Shown piece by piece: positions 1-5,943 of a stretch of DNA of 5,943 nucleotides. The DNA comes from a virus (taxonomy: Duplodnaviria > Heunggongvirae > Uroviricota > Caudoviricetes). Position numbers and translations under genes: made by a program. The stretch is from IMG/VR virus record IMGVR_UViG_2713897140_000009, positions 1 to 5,943 of that record, one strand, 5' to 3'. How positions within the stretch are numbered: the first letter of the stretch is position 1; each line of letters opens with the position of its first letter. The notes under the pieces are model-generated. The model saw only the letters and a list, made by a program, of their open reading frames with translations. It was not told the DNA's origin and did no database searches.

Positions 1-20
1 GCCCTGGAAATACCCCACAG

Positions 21-58
21 CCCCGAAAAAGAGCCAGTCAGTTGCTTAACTGACTGGC
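21..58 (-). terminator. Rho-independent terminator-like hairpin
   Basis: Perfect 11-bp stem GCCAGTCAGTT/AACTGACTGGC (33-43/48-58) with loop GCTT; on the minus strand the stem is followed by TCTTTTTC (complement of 24-31). Confidence 0.4.
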
Positions 59-240
59 ATTAACCGTAAGGGTTGGTTTTTTCTTGGCACGAGAGTATTC
101 AAAACGCGCCAATAACTACTTGATTTAATTGAAGTCGAAAATTTTAAGTCAAAAATCGTATAGCTTAACGTGTAGCTAAAAATGTTTGCTGCAAAAGTAT
201 ACAATTTTAACCGTTATGACTCCCTGTTATCCGCTATCAA

Positions 241-1526: not shown

Positions 1527-1706
1527 TATATGTCCGGTTTGAGTGTTCAATTTTTGCGCATGTCCGGTTCACGGAAAGTGAATTTTTATATTTTTCAAAT
1601 AGTTAACTCCCAGAAAAACCGGACATGGTTTCCGAAAAATTTTCATAAATAGTGAAATTCTGCGCCGCTCCCGCCCCGTAACGGGTCCATATGCCGGAAA
1701 GGACCC
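1527..1706 (-). other. Lambda-type cos site: cosQ (1694-1706), cosN region (1662-1680), conserved cosN-proximal block (1633-1656), and three ATGTCCGGTT repeats in R-site positions (1530-1539, 1560-1569; inverted copy 1617-1626)
   Basis: Minus strand reads ACGGGTCCTTTCCGG-N14-ACGGGGCGGGAGCGGCGCAGAATTTCACTATTTATGAAAATTTTTCGG, against my recall of lambda ACGGGTCCTTTCCGG-N14-ACGGGGCGGCGACCTCGCGGGTTTTCGCTATTTATGAAAATTTTCCGG. cosQ and the cosQ-cosN spacing are identical; the 12-nt cohesive-end position reads GGGCGGGAGCGG versus lambda GGGCGGCGACCT. The three 10-bp repeats (two direct, one inverted, with an AT-rich spacer) occupy the place of lambda R3/R2/R1 but differ in sequence. Confidence 0.6.
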
Positions 1707-1708
1707 GT

Positions 1709-1731
1709 AAAAAAAGCCGGATTTCTCCGGC
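1709..1731 (-). terminator. Rho-independent terminator of the capsid cassette
   Basis: Minus strand GCCGGAGAAATCCGGC followed by TTTTTTT, starting 5 nt past the stop of the 137-aa ORF. Confidence 0.65.
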
Positions 1732-1736
1732 CTGTC

Positions 1737-2150
1737 TCAGATGGTTTTCAGTATGCGATCGATGTCGCCGTCATCGCCCGGGTTTCTGCCATCGTATGCC
1801 ATGCCAGCTGATACGGCTTTCGGGCTGTGTATGTCCATAAAGTTTTCAAAGGCTGCGGTAAGCTCTGGTGCAACCTTCTGGCGTTCCTGCTCTATGGTCA
1901 TGCTAAGAATGCTTTTAGCCGTACCAACATCGATACAAGGCACGTTTGCCATTGCACGTAACAGCGGCTGATAGTCGCCAGATTCATCAAGCGCCATAAT
2001 CGCATCAGCGCGCGGCTTGTCCTGCTCTTCCAGTTTGTTAAGTTGATATATGGCCTCGTAGGTTGATAACCCTCTGTCAGCCATTGCCCGCGCTTCGGCT
2101 TTAAATTTACTCGCCAGCGGTAGCGCCATGATGCTTTCATTCGTTGCCAT
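1737..2150 (-). CDS. Hypothetical 137-aa protein, last gene of the capsid cassette
   Basis: ATG at 2150 with AGGGGGAA 4-5 nt upstream, starting 13 nt after the gpD-like stop, followed by a terminator. Protein-like composition; I do not recognise the family. Its position and size are similar to lambda FI, but no sequence similarity is seen. Confidence 0.6.
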   Translation of the reverse strand: MATNESIMALPLASKFKAEARAMADRGLSTYEAIYQLNKLEEQDKPRADAIMALDESGDYQPLLRAMANVPCIDVGTAKSILSMTIEQERQKVAPELTAAFENFMDIHSPKAVSAGMAYDGRNPGDDGDIDRILKTI

Positions 2151-4020: not shown

Positions 4021-4064
4021 CATAAAAATAAAACCACTGTAATATCAATCCATTACAGTAGTGG
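4021..4064 (-). terminator. Terminator-like hairpin (second in tandem after the SSB gene)
   Basis: 8-bp stem ACTGTAAT/ATTACAGT (4036-4043/4052-4059) with an 8-nt loop; on the minus strand it is followed by TTTTATTTTTAT. Confidence 0.35.
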
Positions 4065-4101
4065 TGATGACGAATGAAATTTCAAAAACTAGCCTTTTTC
4101 C

Positions 4102-4145
4102 GCGCCGCTCCCGCCCCGTGGCAGGTCACTACACCGGGAGGACCC
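4102..4145 (-). other. Second cosQ/cosN-like segment, lacking the ATGTCCGGTT R-repeats
   Basis: The 18-mer GCGCCGCTCCCGCCCCGT (4102-4119) is identical to 1662-1679. It is followed after the same 14-nt spacing by a slightly degenerate cosQ (minus strand GGGTCCTCCCGG, 4134-4145). The surrounding ~75 bp is about 80% identical to 1660-1735. Confidence 0.45.
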
Positions 4146-4147
4146 AT

Positions 4148-4169
4148 AAAAAAGCCGGATTGCTCCGGC
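4148..4169 (-). terminator. Rho-independent terminator after the SSB gene
   Basis: Minus strand GCCGGAGCAATCCGGC followed by TTTTTT; a paralog of the terminator at 1709-1731. Confidence 0.6.
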
Positions 4170-4185
4170 TTCTGTTACTCGTTGC

Positions 4186-4608
4186 TTAAAACGGTATGTT
4201 ATCCCCGTACGGATCATCATTTCCCGCCTGTTGTTTTGCTCTGCTCAGTGCATCAGCAGCCTGCCCCTGTTGGCCTTTTTTGCCGCCCGGTCGCGCCGTT
4301 CTCGCACTGATTACGCTGTCTGCGATAACCTGCCAGCCCTGCCGCATTTCCCCGTTCTGTCCGGTCCACTGGCTCACCTGCATGTTACCCGCCACGCTCA
4401 GGGGTTCACCCTTGCGGTGCTTTGCCAGTGCTTCGGCCTGTCTGCCAAACGCCAGGACGGATAACCACATCGTCGCCGTTCCGTCATCGGCCTGGCTGCA
4501 CGGCAGGGGAACCGCCATACTCGCCATCGCCATTTGTGTCCCTTTGCTGGTGGTCTTTAACTGCGGGTCAGCCACCAGCCGCCCGTAAGCTGCTATCTGT
4601 GCTGTCAT
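4186..4608 (-). CDS. ssb: Single-stranded DNA-binding protein (SSB-like, 140 aa) with a C-terminal acidic IPF tail
   Basis: FGRQAEALAKHRKGEPLSVAGNMQVSQWTGQNGEMRQGWQVIA aligns with E. coli SSB [43 protein letters not shown]. Gly/Gln-rich linker and C-terminal DDPYGDNIPF (E. coli DDDIPF). Its ATG overlaps the upstream stop (ATGA). Confidence 0.75.
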   Translation of the reverse strand: MTAQIAAYGRLVADPQLKTTSKGTQMAMASMAVPLPCSQADDGTATMWLSVLAFGRQAEALAKHRKGEPLSVAGNMQVSQWTGQNGEMRQGWQVIADSVISARTARPGGKKGQQGQAADALSRAKQQAGNDDPYGDNIPF

Positions 4609-4862
4609 GCTGTCTGCTCTCCGGTTTTAACGTTGATGGTTGTCACCTGTTCCGCTTCGGCAATCTCCCGTTCTGTCAGCGTGGCAAAGTTTGCTGCCGC
4701 CGTGGTCATGAATGCGCTTATCAGTTCAGGATGTGCTTTCGCGTATCCTTCTCCCGCGTTGCGGTCGATGATTTTTATCGCCACCCTCAGCCAGTGCTCT
4801 GTAAGGTCAATGGCGCGGTTATGTTGCTTCTTCTGATTGTTAAGTTTTCCTGATGTGTGCAT
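4605..4862 (-). CDS. Hypothetical 85-aa protein between the origin and the SSB gene
   Basis: ATG at 4862 with GAGGGGGG about 11 nt upstream; stop overlaps the SSB start (ATGA), suggesting translational coupling. Family not recognised. Confidence 0.5.
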   Translation of the reverse strand: MHTSGKLNNQKKQHNRAIDLTEHWLRVAIKIIDRNAGEGYAKAHPELISAFMTTAAANFATLTEREIAEAEQVTTINVKTGEQTA

Positions 4863-4911
4863 TTTTGTTTTTACCCCCCTCGTTTAAAAAGTTTTGGAGA
4901 TACCCCCACCT

Positions 4912-5138
4912 TGTCTACCTTATCTACCTGGTGGATGCTCAGGCCAGTAATGACGCGGGTTTTATGGTGGTAGACAGTAAAAAATCTCTGTCTACCTGAT
5001 GTCTACCCATCCCTCCGACTGGCTACAAAAACAGGTAGACAAGGTAGACAGCTTGTAGACAGTAAAAAAAAGCTGTCTACCTAAATTAATACACTGAATT
5101 AAAACAACTTTTATGTAATCAGGTAGACAAGGTAGACA
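4912..5138. repeat. Iteron-type replication origin: 11 copies of the 8-bp iteron GGTAGACA/TGTCTACC in both orientations, interspersed with A-tracts
   Basis: TGTCTACC at 4912, 4989, 5000, 5074 and a variant at 4921; GGTAGACA at 4969, 5034, 5043, 5122, 5131 and a variant at 5055. Tandem pairs have a 9-bp period. AGGTAGACAAGGTAGACAG occurs twice (5032-5050, 5120-5138). A-rich tracts at 4976-4984 and 5062-5070 could act as an unwinding element. Lies directly downstream of the rep ORF. Confidence 0.65.
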
Positions 5139-5152
5139 GCAATTGCCAAAAA

Positions 5153-5878
5153 TTATAAAAACGCGTCGCAATCGTCGGTTGTTATTGCGTTAGTCTGCGT
5201 CACTCCATTAATTTTTCGCGTAATATATTCATGTCCGTAAACTTTTGCGGCTGGCTTCATGGCCTTGCCAAAGTCATTTACGTTTAGTGGTTTGGTTCTG
5301 CCTGCGTATGCCATAAACGCCAGATAGACGCGGTAAAGGCTGTTTCTGGTCGTGTACTTCACGGAATCGCCACCGCCACCCATCATCAGGCCACGTGCTT
5401 CCTCCAGAAAATTCAGGAACTGGCAAAACTCAATAACCGGATCCGTTTGCTGCTTTATCGCCAGTGCTTCATCACCGTCACGCTGTTCCAGTAGTAAAGC
5501 CCGCGCCTTTTCAGGGTCTGCAAAGTTCGCCAGTAATCGGCGGATAATGACGGGGATTTCAGCCGCAATCTTTTCCGGTAGTTCCCTGTCTTTTTCGGCC
5601 TCGTTGACGATATTGTCGAAACGGAAAATCACGCGACGACGTGCCACGCCTCCGGCCCGTTCGGTGAATATCATCGGATTGTTATTGGTTGCCAGCACCA
5701 CCGCCCTGATTACCGCCGTAAAACGCTTTTCATATTTCGGGTTAATTTCCACGGGGTCGCCGCCCGTGATTTTCTTGATGCCCGTTCCTTCGCCTGTATA
5801 TTTCGGCTGGTCTGCCAGGACGATAAGACGACTCCCGACAACCTGTGCACGCCCACCAGCATCATCAAGCGATGTCAT
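5153..5878 (-). CDS. Replication protein resembling the C-terminal region of P4-family (D5-like) primase/SF3 helicases; no Walker A in this ORF
   Basis: GSRLIVLADQ (Walker-B-like region), KKITGGDPV, VVLATNNNP (SF3 motif-C-like TNNxP), RRRVIFRFDN and ELPEKIAAEIPVII match the conserved post-Walker-A pattern of P4 alpha-type proteins as I recall it. No GxxxxGK[ST] motif is present. The ATG overlaps the stop of the upstream ORF (ATGA). Confidence 0.6.
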   Translation of the reverse strand: MTSLDDAGGRAQVVGSRLIVLADQPKYTGEGTGIKKITGGDPVEINPKYEKRFTAVIRAVVLATNNNPMIFTERAGGVARRRVIFRFDNIVNEAEKDRELPEKIAAEIPVIIRRLLANFADPEKARALLLEQRDGDEALAIKQQTDPVIEFCQFLNFLEEARGLMMGGGGDSVKYTTRNSLYRVYLAFMAYAGRTKPLNVNDFGKAMKPAAKVYGHEYITRKINGVTQTNAITTDDCDAFL

Positions 5879-5943
5879 CTCAGCGCTGATATGACTTTCC
5901 GTGTCAAACCGGAATCTCTAATTTTGACGATTTTCTTTTTAGG
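5875..5943 (-). CDS. 3' end of an upstream ORF continuing beyond the window (C-terminus ...PKKKIVKIRDSGLTRKVISALR)
   Basis: The only minus-strand frame open to the window edge; its TGA overlaps the rep ATG. Too short to identify. Confidence 0.3.
   Translation of the reverse strand, partial: PKKKIVKIRDSGLTRKVISALR

What the first reader, a model, noticed from the sequence alone, without database searches (positions are those of the whole stretch)
4912..5138. Dense iteron array directly downstream of rep
Eleven copies of an 8-bp iteron in both orientations with 9-bp tandem spacing, repeated 19-bp double-iteron blocks and flanking A-tracts are characteristic of a rep-adjacent origin in satellite and plasmid-like replicons. 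Placement between rep and the orf85-ssb pair gives a compact replication module.
Basis: seen in the sequence. Interest (0 to 1): 0.5.

Follow-up and report, generated by a model that had tools for sequence, protein, structure and literature searches.

The report
Replication origin of a PICI satellite
The repeat cluster is real and is the replication origin of an E. coli phage-inducible chromosomal island, a kind of origin already described and tested in a near-identical island (EcCICFT073); in this copy the replication gene beside it has been cut by an insertion sequence.

Summary
Eleven copies of GGTAGACA (nine exact, two with one mismatch), in both orientations, fill the 290-bp gap between the rep stop codon and orf85, and there is no exact copy elsewhere in the window.

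The window is part of an E. coli PICI of the EcCICFT073 family. Its Rep fragment is 96% identical to EcCICFT073 Pri-Rep. The array aligns with the region 3' of that gene at the same iteron positions. Fillol-Salom et al. 2018 named that region ori and showed that it supports plasmid replication.

The GGTAGA core is 85% invariant across nine E. coli/Shigella alleles, against 27% for spacers. It persists after rep homologues in four other genera. The Rep C-terminus matches the P4 alpha origin-binding domain (PDB 1KA8).

An 82.5% A+T stretch (5082-5121) between oppositely oriented iterons is the likely melting site.

- rep is split by an IS110-like element at 5888, so this origin has no intact cognate rep in cis.
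- The three closest genomes lack an 85-bp, five-iteron module.
- The array resembles P4 crr in position and design.

Verdict: a correct reading of an already known kind of element, of low novelty.

The parts
4912..5138 (.). Iteron array: 11 copies of GGTAGA(C/T)A in both orientations. Start spacings are 9, 48, 20, 11, 34, 9, 11, 20, 48, 9, which makes a large imperfect dyad.
   Evidence: The GGTAGA core columns are 85% invariant across 9 alleles, against 27% for spacers.
5122..5138 (+). Rep-proximal tandem double iteron (GGTAGACAAGGTAGACA, 9-bp spacing). It is the only iteron set on the rep side of the AT-rich stretch.
   Evidence: It is present directly after the rep stop in all 9 E. coli/Shigella alleles and in Pantoea, Xenorhabdus and Rosenbergiella.
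5082..5121 (.). AT-rich stretch (82.5% A+T), the candidate DNA-unwinding element, bounded by oppositely oriented iterons (5074-5081 on - and 5122-5129 on +).
   Evidence: The GC minimum of 0.20 falls at 5080-5119. It is one of only four places in the window where a 40-nt window reaches 80% A+T. An AT-rich stretch occupies the same position in the other genera. PMC6092414 Fig. 2a legend: iteron sets flank an AT-rich region.
5054..5081 (.). Inverted iteron pair around an A8 tract (TGTAGACAG-N10-CTGTCTACC).
   Evidence: I24, D1. It forms a 9-bp stem if single-stranded, z = -4.3.
4969..4996 (.). Second inverted iteron pair around an A6 tract (GGTAGACAG-N10-CTGTCTACC).
   Evidence: I17, D1; z = -3.7.
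4970..5054 (.). 85-bp module carrying five iterons. It is missing in the three closest genomes, and the breakpoints lie in the repeated GTAGACAGTAAAAAA.
   Evidence: The long form is the common one: 405 of 485 matching genomes cover at least 80% of the 290-bp query.
4929..4968 (.). GC-rich 48-bp gap holding a conserved non-iteron block (about 4937-4960, CCAGTAATGRCGCGG). It mirrors the AT-rich gap in the dyad. Function unknown.
4912..4928 (-). orf85-proximal tandem double iteron (GGTAGACA / GGTAGATA, 9-bp spacing).
5153..5887 (-). 3' remnant of the PICI pri-rep gene, matching EcCICFT073 Pri-Rep residues 337-584. It keeps the end of the SF3 helicase domain and the C-terminal winged-helix origin-binding domain but has lost the Walker A region.
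5888..5943 (.). End of the IS110-like ISSso6 element that interrupts rep.
   Evidence: The match to FDAARGOS_943, which has an intact rep, stops at 5887. The matches to VL7S7 and O121 201805972 run on to 5943. The annotation for VL7S7 shows rep split around an IS110-like transposase.
4605..4862 (-). orf85 (PHROG 1231, unknown function), the first gene after the origin.
   Evidence: It is absent next to the arrays of other genera.
4186..4608 (-). Single-strand DNA-binding protein gene.

Best explanation
The array is the replication origin of a Gram-negative phage-inducible chromosomal island (PICI) of the EcCICFT073 family.

Proposed mechanism:
1. A helper lambdoid phage induces the island, and AlpA turns on the island operon, which includes rep.
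2. Rep is an SF3 (D5/P4-alpha type) helicase with a C-terminal winged-helix domain. It binds the GGTAGA(C/T)A iterons on both sides of the 40-bp AT-rich stretch at 5082-5121.
3. Rep oligomerises, melts that stretch and loads itself as the replicative helicase.
4. The host replisome extends from there, helped by the island's own SSB encoded just downstream. The products are concatemers that are packaged from the island's cos sites.

What is shown:
- The repeats exist and are under selection.
- The homologous EcCICFT073 region is needed, together with rep, for plasmid replication.

What is inferred:
- That Rep is the iteron-binding protein. This rests on homology to the P4 alpha origin-binding domain and to SaPI Reps, and on linkage across genera.
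- That the AT-rich stretch is where melting occurs.

In this window rep is split by an insertion sequence. This copy of the origin can therefore fire only if a Rep of the same specificity is supplied in trans. Otherwise it is an inactive relic.
For: - The repeats are far beyond chance and confined to the rep-orf85 gap.
- The genomic context is a PICI at tRNA-Pro, with int, alpA-like HTH, Icd-like, DUF4222, rep, orf85, ssb and capsid E/D-like genes. EcCICFT073 has the same order.
- The Rep fragment is 96% identical to EcCICFT073 Pri-Rep residues 337-584.
- The array aligns with the EcCICFT073 and IHE3034 regions with iterons at the same positions, although overall DNA identity is only about 75-79%.
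- PMC6092414 reports that the region immediately 3' of the replication initiator gene is the ori and that iteron sets flank an AT-rich region. It also reports that a pri-ori plasmid replicates, while pri-delta-ori and delta-pri-ori are significantly impaired.
- In the phylogenetic footprint, GGTAGA core columns are 85% invariant against 27% for spacers. None of 226 circular shifts of the iteron mask reaches the observed difference.
- Six to thirteen GGTAGA copies follow the rep homologue in Shigella, Rosenbergiella, Pantoea, Xenorhabdus and Symbiopectobacterium. orf85 is absent in the last four of these genera, and ssb in all but Rosenbergiella.
- Rep is 41% identical to P4 alpha residues 324-756, and its C-terminus matches PDB 1KA8, the P4 origin-binding domain, at E = 1.1e-06.
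- The helicase core matches 7OLA, E = 3.8e-15. PMC9371898, which cites 7OLA, describes SaPI Reps as self-loading helicases. Their winged-helix domain reads 5-6 nt iterons placed just after rep around an AT-rich centre.
- The two E. coli alleles whose iterons read GGTAGAGG instead of GGTAGA(C/T)A differ from near-identical Reps in the C-terminal domain mainly at NVNDFGKAM to NVAEFSKAM.
- The AT-rich stretch is 82.5% A+T.
Against: - No direct Rep-iteron binding or start-site mapping exists for this family in the papers I could read.
- In the published test, deletion of ori reduced but did not abolish colony formation.
- The AT-rich stretch is not central: two iterons lie on the rep side and nine on the other.
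- There are no DnaA boxes, IHF sites or GATC sites in the region, so any host-factor contribution is unknown.
- The Rep/iteron co-variation rests on two related alleles and could reflect shared ancestry.
- In this window rep lacks its first 336 codons or so, including Walker A, so the origin cannot work in cis here.
Confidence: 0.85

Rival explanations
1. The array is a crr-like cis-acting enhancer rather than the initiation site. In P4 the iteron cluster directly downstream of alpha is crr, and replication starts at a separate ori 4.5 kb away.
For: Position, iteron length (8 bp), mixed orientations and the 9-bp tandem spacing all match P4 crr. Rep is an alpha homologue.
Against: No second cluster of GGTAGANA exists anywhere in three complete islands: CFT073, IHE3034 and FDAARGOS_943. 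The cloned EcCICFT073 rep-plus-downstream segment was enough for plasmid replication.
Confidence: 0.06
2. The repeats are mainly a regulatory operator or copy-number device. Rep or another island protein would bind there to control read-through into orf85-ssb, or to handcuff or titrate Rep, with origin activity being secondary.
For: The array lies inside a unidirectional operon between rep and orf85-ssb. Iterons have such dual roles in iteron plasmids (general knowledge; PMC4857107 abstract). A weak promoter-like match overlaps the rep-proximal iterons on the + strand.
Against: That promoter match points away from orf85 and is no better than shuffled sequence (1 found, 0.8 expected). orf85 and ssb are not conserved next to the array in other genera. 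The AT-rich stretch between opposed iterons is conserved, and a pure operator would not need it.
Confidence: 0.05
3. The iterons are bound by a different island protein, for example the unknown 85-aa product encoded next to them, and not by Rep.
For: orf85 has no assigned function and abuts the array.
Against: Arrays with the same GGTAGA core persist next to rep in Rosenbergiella, Pantoea, Xenorhabdus, Symbiopectobacterium and E. coli ETEC1732, where no orf85 homologue is found. Rep carries a domain homologous to a solved origin-binding domain.
Confidence: 0.03
4. The repeats are a chance or low-complexity feature with no function.
For: None beyond the short length of the unit.
Against: 0 of 200 shuffles reach the observed count. 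The positions are conserved across alleles at about 75% identity and across genera.
Confidence: 0.01

Closest known systems
EcCICFT073 ori (Gram-negative PICI origin; Fillol-Salom et al. 2018, ISME J, PMC6092414)
   Same: It has the same position immediately 3' of pri-rep, the same flanking genes (orf85, ssb), and the same iteron positions and GGTAGA core. The AT-rich stretch lies between the rep-proximal double iteron and an inverted pair in both. Rep is 96% identical over the part present.
   Different: The spacers have diverged (about 76% identity). The window's iterons are more uniform: 9 of its 10 GGTAGA-core copies read GGTAGACA, whereas CFT073 mixes C, T and G at position 7. The window's rep is interrupted by an IS. 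The island sits at tRNA-Pro next to yejM rather than between roxA and phoQ.
Satellite phage P4 crr and ori (type 1 repeats bound by the alpha protein)
   Same: The iteron cluster lies directly downstream of an alpha-family gene. The units are 8 bp and occur in both orientations, with tandem pairs at 9-bp spacing. The iteron TGTCTACC matches P4 TGTTCACC at 6 of 8 positions. Rep is 41% identical to alpha over the helicase and origin-binding domains.
   Different: P4 needs two separate sites (ori and crr), whereas these PICIs have one cluster. P4 crr consists of two 120-bp direct repeats, whereas this array is an imperfect dyad with 85/88-bp repeats. The PICI Rep lacks the Zn-ribbon and Toprim primase domains of alpha.
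SaPI origins (Staphylococcus aureus pathogenicity islands; Rep1, PriRep5)
   Same: The ori lies immediately downstream of rep. It has 6-12 short iterons around an AT-rich region, with opposed orientation on the two sides. The initiator is an SF3 self-loading helicase with a C-terminal winged helix (PMC9371898). The helicase core matches 7OLA.
   Different: The AT-rich region is off-centre here (2 iterons against 9). The iteron sequences are unrelated, and the hosts and helper phages differ.
Iteron plasmids (pSC101, R6K, RK2, F, P1 type)
   Same: The general logic is the same: repeated initiator-binding sites next to an AT-rich unwinding element and next to the initiator gene.
   Different: Those iterons are about 17-22 bp, mostly direct repeats, and are bound by Rep_3-type initiators that recruit DnaA and DnaB (general knowledge). 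Here the units are 8 bp in both orientations, no DnaA box is present, and the initiator is itself a helicase.

Membership tests
Gram-negative PICI origin (EcCICFT073 type) | Lies immediately 3' of the replication initiator (pri-rep) gene | tested here: met
   The rep stop is at 5153 and the first iteron ends at 5138.
Gram-negative PICI origin (EcCICFT073 type) | [quoted passage not shown] | tested here: met
   Iterons lie at 5122-5138 and at 4912-5081, on either side of the 82.5% A+T stretch 5082-5121.
Gram-negative PICI origin (EcCICFT073 type) | Sequence homology to the tested EcCICFT073 ori and its Pri-Rep | tested here: met
   The alignment shows iterons at the same positions. Rep is 96% identical over 248 aa.
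Gram-negative PICI origin (EcCICFT073 type) | Carried by a PICI (int, alpA, rep, cos sites, about 10-13 kb, specific attachment site) | tested here: met
   The near-identical islands in VL7S7 and FDAARGOS_943 show this gene set. Two cos-like segments lie in the window.
Gram-negative PICI origin (EcCICFT073 type) | Rep-dependent origin activity | not testable with these tools
   It has been shown only for the CFT073 homologue (PMC6092414).
Gram-negative PICI origin (EcCICFT073 type) | Intact cognate rep in cis | tested here: not met
   rep is split by an IS110-like element at 5888, and only residues 337-584 or so remain in the window. This bears on activity in this strain, not on what the array is.
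P4 crr / ori | Type 1 repeat TGTTCACC | tested here: not met
   The iteron here is TGTCTACC, a 6 of 8 match.
P4 crr / ori | Iteron cluster directly downstream of an alpha-family gene | tested here: met
   P4 crr lies at 4291-4590 and the alpha stop at 4636. In the window the array ends 15 nt from the rep stop.
P4 crr / ori | Two separate cis sites (ori and crr) several kb apart | tested here: not met
   Three complete islands each have a single GGTAGANA cluster.
P4 crr / ori | Initiator with an N-terminal Zn-ribbon/Toprim primase, an SF3 helicase and a winged-helix origin-binding domain | tested here: inconclusive
   The helicase and origin-binding domains are present. No primase domain is detected in the first 150 residues of the full-length PICI Rep.
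SaPI-type origin | 6-12 short iterons just after rep, an AT-rich region, and opposed iterons on each side | tested here: met
   There are 11 iterons with a 6-nt invariant core. The iteron at 5074 (-) faces the one at 5122 (+) across the AT-rich stretch. The definition is from PMC9371898.
Iteron plasmid origin (Rep_3 type) | Direct repeats of 17-22 bp, DnaA boxes and a Rep_3 initiator | tested here: not met
   The units are 8 bp in both orientations. No DnaA box is found even allowing one mismatch. The initiator has D5_N, DUF5906 and Pox_D5 domains.

The most novel reading that the evidence does not exclude
The PICI origin is an evolutionary homologue of P4 crr that has taken over the roles of both ori and crr in a single dyad-symmetric site. 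Three things would follow:
- The conserved GC-rich block (about 4937-4960), which mirrors the AT-rich gap, is a second functional element, for example a loading or priming site.
- Iteron position 8, together with the Rep motif NVNDFGKAM/NVAEFSKAM, defines replication-specificity (incompatibility) groups among co-resident islands.
- Origins left without a working rep, such as this one, could still be fired, or could titrate Rep, when a compatible island is induced.
Probability: 0.25. Interest if true: 0.35.

Novelty: already known. Interest (0 to 1): 0.15.

Why it matters
The result gives this window a secure annotation: it is a decayed EcCICFT073-type PICI whose origin is intact but whose initiator gene is broken.

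It adds little to biology. The origin type, its position and its iteron-plus-AT-rich layout were published and functionally tested in 2018.

The modest additions are:
- A six-base invariant core, GGTAGA, shared across at least six genera.
- A dyad layout with a recurrent 85-bp module deletion.
- A candidate Rep motif that varies together with iteron position 8.
- A clear structural and sequence link to P4 crr, which runs against the published statement that the layout is shared with no other known replicon.

Tried and rejected
- Rfam at E <= 1 found no RNA family in the region.
- Promoter and terminator scans gave nothing above shuffled expectation.
- DnaA, IHF, Fis and GATC motif scans of 4863-5152 found nothing.
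- I tested whether the conserved GC-rich block is a conserved hairpin. It is strong in some alleles (ETEC1732 z = -6.6; CFT073 and Rosenbergiella about -2.3) but absent in the window (z = +0.4) and in several others, so I did not adopt that idea.
- DNA searches of ori plus the rep 3' end found nothing in the phage collection. In the plasmid collection they found only records that look like chromosomal fragments or distant primase genes. pD17EC0246-3 carries chromosomal genes around a capsid-forming island, so it is not evidence of autonomous replication.
- I did not run structure prediction or the large protein searches. Homology to 1KA8 and to P4 alpha already answered the question they would have addressed.

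Full report
**1. Observation**

The window holds 13 matches to GGTAGACA when one mismatch is allowed, against 2.81 +/- 1.61 expected. None of 200 shuffles reaches 13. Eleven of the matches lie at 4912-5138. The 7-mer GTAGACA occurs ten times, all in that interval, against 0.33 expected.

Six copies are on the + strand (starts 4969, 5034, 5043, 5054, 5122, 5131) and five on the - strand (4912, 4921, 4989, 5000, 5074).

- Three tandem pairs are spaced 9 bp start to start.
- The 19-bp block CAGGTAGACAAGGTAGACA occurs twice directly and once inverted.
- Two inverted pairs, each GTAGACAG-N10-CTGTCTAC, enclose A-tracts.

The start spacings are 9, 48, 20, 11, 34, 9, 11, 20, 48, 9. The array as a whole is thus a large imperfect dyad.

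**2. Context**

On the - strand the window encodes, in order of transcription:
- the 3' part of a D5/P4-alpha-type replication protein (5153-5887)
- the array
- an 85-aa protein of unknown function
- an SSB
- a lambda E-like major capsid protein
- a lambda D-like decoration protein
- further small ORFs

The closest genomes are E. coli VL7S7, O121 201805972 and FDAARGOS_943, all at 99.9% identity. In VL7S7 and FDAARGOS_943, whose annotation I read, this is part of a roughly 12-kb island next to tRNA-Pro and yejM. Its order is int, HTH regulator, Ash, Icd-like, DUF4222, a 584-aa 'DNA primase family protein', orf85, ssb and the capsid genes.

EcCICFT073, the prototype Gram-negative PICI, has the same gene order. 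The window's Rep fragment is 96% identical to its Pri-Rep residues 337-584.

**3. Identity of the array**

The window's array, aligned with the regions downstream of rep in CFT073 and IHE3034, has iterons at the same positions, although the DNA is only about 75-79% identical overall.

Fillol-Salom et al. 2018 (PMC6092414) report the following:
- The region immediately 3' of the replication initiator gene is the PICI origin.
- Iteron sets flank an AT-rich region that could be the melting site.
- A pri-ori fragment of EcCICFT073 maintains a temperature-sensitive plasmid at the restrictive temperature, while delta-ori and delta-pri versions are significantly impaired.

The array in the window is therefore an allele of a published and functionally tested origin.

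**4. Independent support from comparison**

Across nine E. coli/Shigella alleles, the six core columns GGTAGA are 85% invariant, against 27% for spacer columns. Positions 7-8 of the 8-mer are never invariant. No circular shift of the iteron mask (0 of 226) reaches the observed contrast.

In one-genome-per-species data, rep homologues at 57-67% identity are followed by six to thirteen GGTAGA copies in a similar layout. The genera are Rosenbergiella, Pantoea, Xenorhabdus and Symbiopectobacterium. The layout is a double iteron right after the stop codon, then an AT-rich stretch, then an inverted pair. In those four genera orf85 is absent, and ssb is found only in Rosenbergiella. Rep is thus the only constant neighbour.

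About 485 of 5,426 complete E. coli genomes carry a recognisable copy, always on the chromosome and with no annotated feature under the match in the rows listed.

**5. Who binds**

The full-length PICI Rep has three Pfam domains: D5_N, DUF5906 (the SF3 P-loop region) and Pox_D5. It is 41% identical to P4 alpha residues 324-756. Its C-terminus matches PDB 1KA8, the P4 origin-binding winged-helix domain, at E = 1.1e-06. Its helicase core matches 7OLA at E = 3.8e-15.

PMC9371898, the paper that cites 7OLA, describes SaPI Reps as self-loading helicases. Their C-terminal winged helix reads 5-6 nt iterons placed just after rep around an AT-rich centre.

There is a small piece of co-variation. The alleles UTME-3 and S22EC have iterons reading GGTAGAGG. 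Their Reps are otherwise about 95% identical to the window's in the C-terminal 125 residues, but carry NVAEFSKAM where the others have NVNDFGKAM. This rests on two related alleles and is only suggestive.

**6. Likely mechanism**

- Rep binds the iterons.
- The 40-bp stretch 5082-5121 is the likely unwinding element. It is 82.5% A+T, the local GC minimum, and one of only four such places in the window. It is bounded by iterons of opposite orientation.
- Rep then loads itself as the helicase.

Binding and melting are inferred. Only the requirement for the homologous region in a related island is experimental.

The AT-rich stretch is off-centre, with two iterons on the rep side and nine on the other. 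No DnaA, IHF, Fis or GATC motif is present.

**7.

(a) rep is broken. The match to FDAARGOS_943, which has an intact rep, stops at 5887. VL7S7 and O121 201805972 continue to 5943, and in VL7S7 the annotation shows rep split around an IS110-like ISSso6 transposase. The fragment left in the window starts after the Walker A motif. This origin therefore has no working initiator in cis.

(b) The three closest genomes lack 85 bp (4970-5054) and with it five iterons. What remains is a symmetric minimal array: double iteron, 48 bp, inverted pair, 48 bp, double iteron. The long form is the common one.

(c) The array resembles P4 crr. That cluster also lies directly after the initiator gene. It also uses 8-bp units in both orientations with a 9-bp tandem pair, and its unit TGTTCACC differs from TGTCTACC at two positions. 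Unlike P4, three complete PICIs have no second iteron cluster, and the PICI Rep shows no Zn-ribbon/Toprim primase domain.

**8. Rivals**

- *A crr-like enhancer with initiation elsewhere.* This is unlikely, because there is a single cluster per island and the cloned rep-ori fragment sufficed for replication.
- *A purely regulatory operator.* This is not supported: the promoter scan is at background level, and the downstream genes are not conserved across genera.
- *Binding by Orf85.* This is unlikely, because arrays persist where orf85 is absent.
- *Chance.* This is excluded.

**9. Verdict**

The element is an allele of a known, tested PICI origin lying in a decayed island. Novelty is low, and interest is 0.15.

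The unexplained residue is the conserved GC-rich block at about 4937-4960. It mirrors the AT-rich gap and has no consistent secondary structure.

Noticed in passing
window 5888-5943: This is the end of an IS110-like ISSso6 element inserted in the PICI rep gene. The same insertion is present in E. coli VL7S7 and O121 201805972 but not in FDAARGOS_943.
   Followed up: partly
window 1-65: This stretch matches the end of IS4 (InsG transposase region) at 98-100% identity in two phage records. The window is therefore bounded by insertion sequences at both ends (H39/H40).
   Followed up: no
window 1590-1745 and 4030-4185: Two cos-like segments share GCGCCGCTCCCGCCCCGT and a hairpin, AAAAAAGCCGGATT(T/G)CTCCGGC. 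Window 3989-4145 matches the genome ends of lambdoid phage mEp460, and 1380-1480 matches the Nu1 region of lambda-like phages. This fits the two functional cos sites reported for EcCICFT073 (PMC6092414).
   Followed up: partly
window 4937-4960: A conserved non-iteron block (CCAGTAATGRCGCGG) lies in the GC-rich 48-bp gap that mirrors the AT-rich gap of the dyad. A related motif, AAAGCC..GCGCCA, occurs at the same place in other genera. A hairpin is strong in some alleles but absent in the window. Its function is unknown.
   Followed up: partly
window 4970-5054; L001 and L002 around 16889: The three closest genomes lack this 85-bp, five-iteron module. The IS in rep is shared with only two of them, so either the deletion or the IS insertion arose more than once, or the region has recombined.
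   Followed up: partly
L002 16988-18742 (full-length Rep of the nearest intact island): The protein is annotated 'DNA primase family protein' and called Pri-Rep in the literature. It shows D5_N, DUF5906 and Pox_D5 domains but no Zn-ribbon or Toprim primase domain. P4 alpha has both. The first 150 residues have no assignment.
   Followed up: partly
L024, L025, L027, L028: The same rep-ori-orf85-ssb module is joined to different head modules. Some islands have lambda E/D-like capsid genes, as here. Others have a ClpP-protease/capsid fusion or a complete HK97-type head and terminase set, which are capsid-forming PICI-like. This points to modular exchange.
   Followed up: no
L026 2491-2806 (E. coli ETEC1732): In this allele the array is permuted. 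The half that normally lies far from rep sits next to the rep stop, and the AT-rich half lies distal. A RepA-helicase pseudogene, ProQ/FinO and PerC genes follow instead of orf85-ssb.
   Followed up: no
window 1737-2150 (- strand): This 137-aa protein (PHROG 1999) has a weak match to the C-terminal part of head maturation protease family phrog_53. It may be a Nu3-like scaffold remnant next to the E-like and D-like capsid genes.
   Followed up: no
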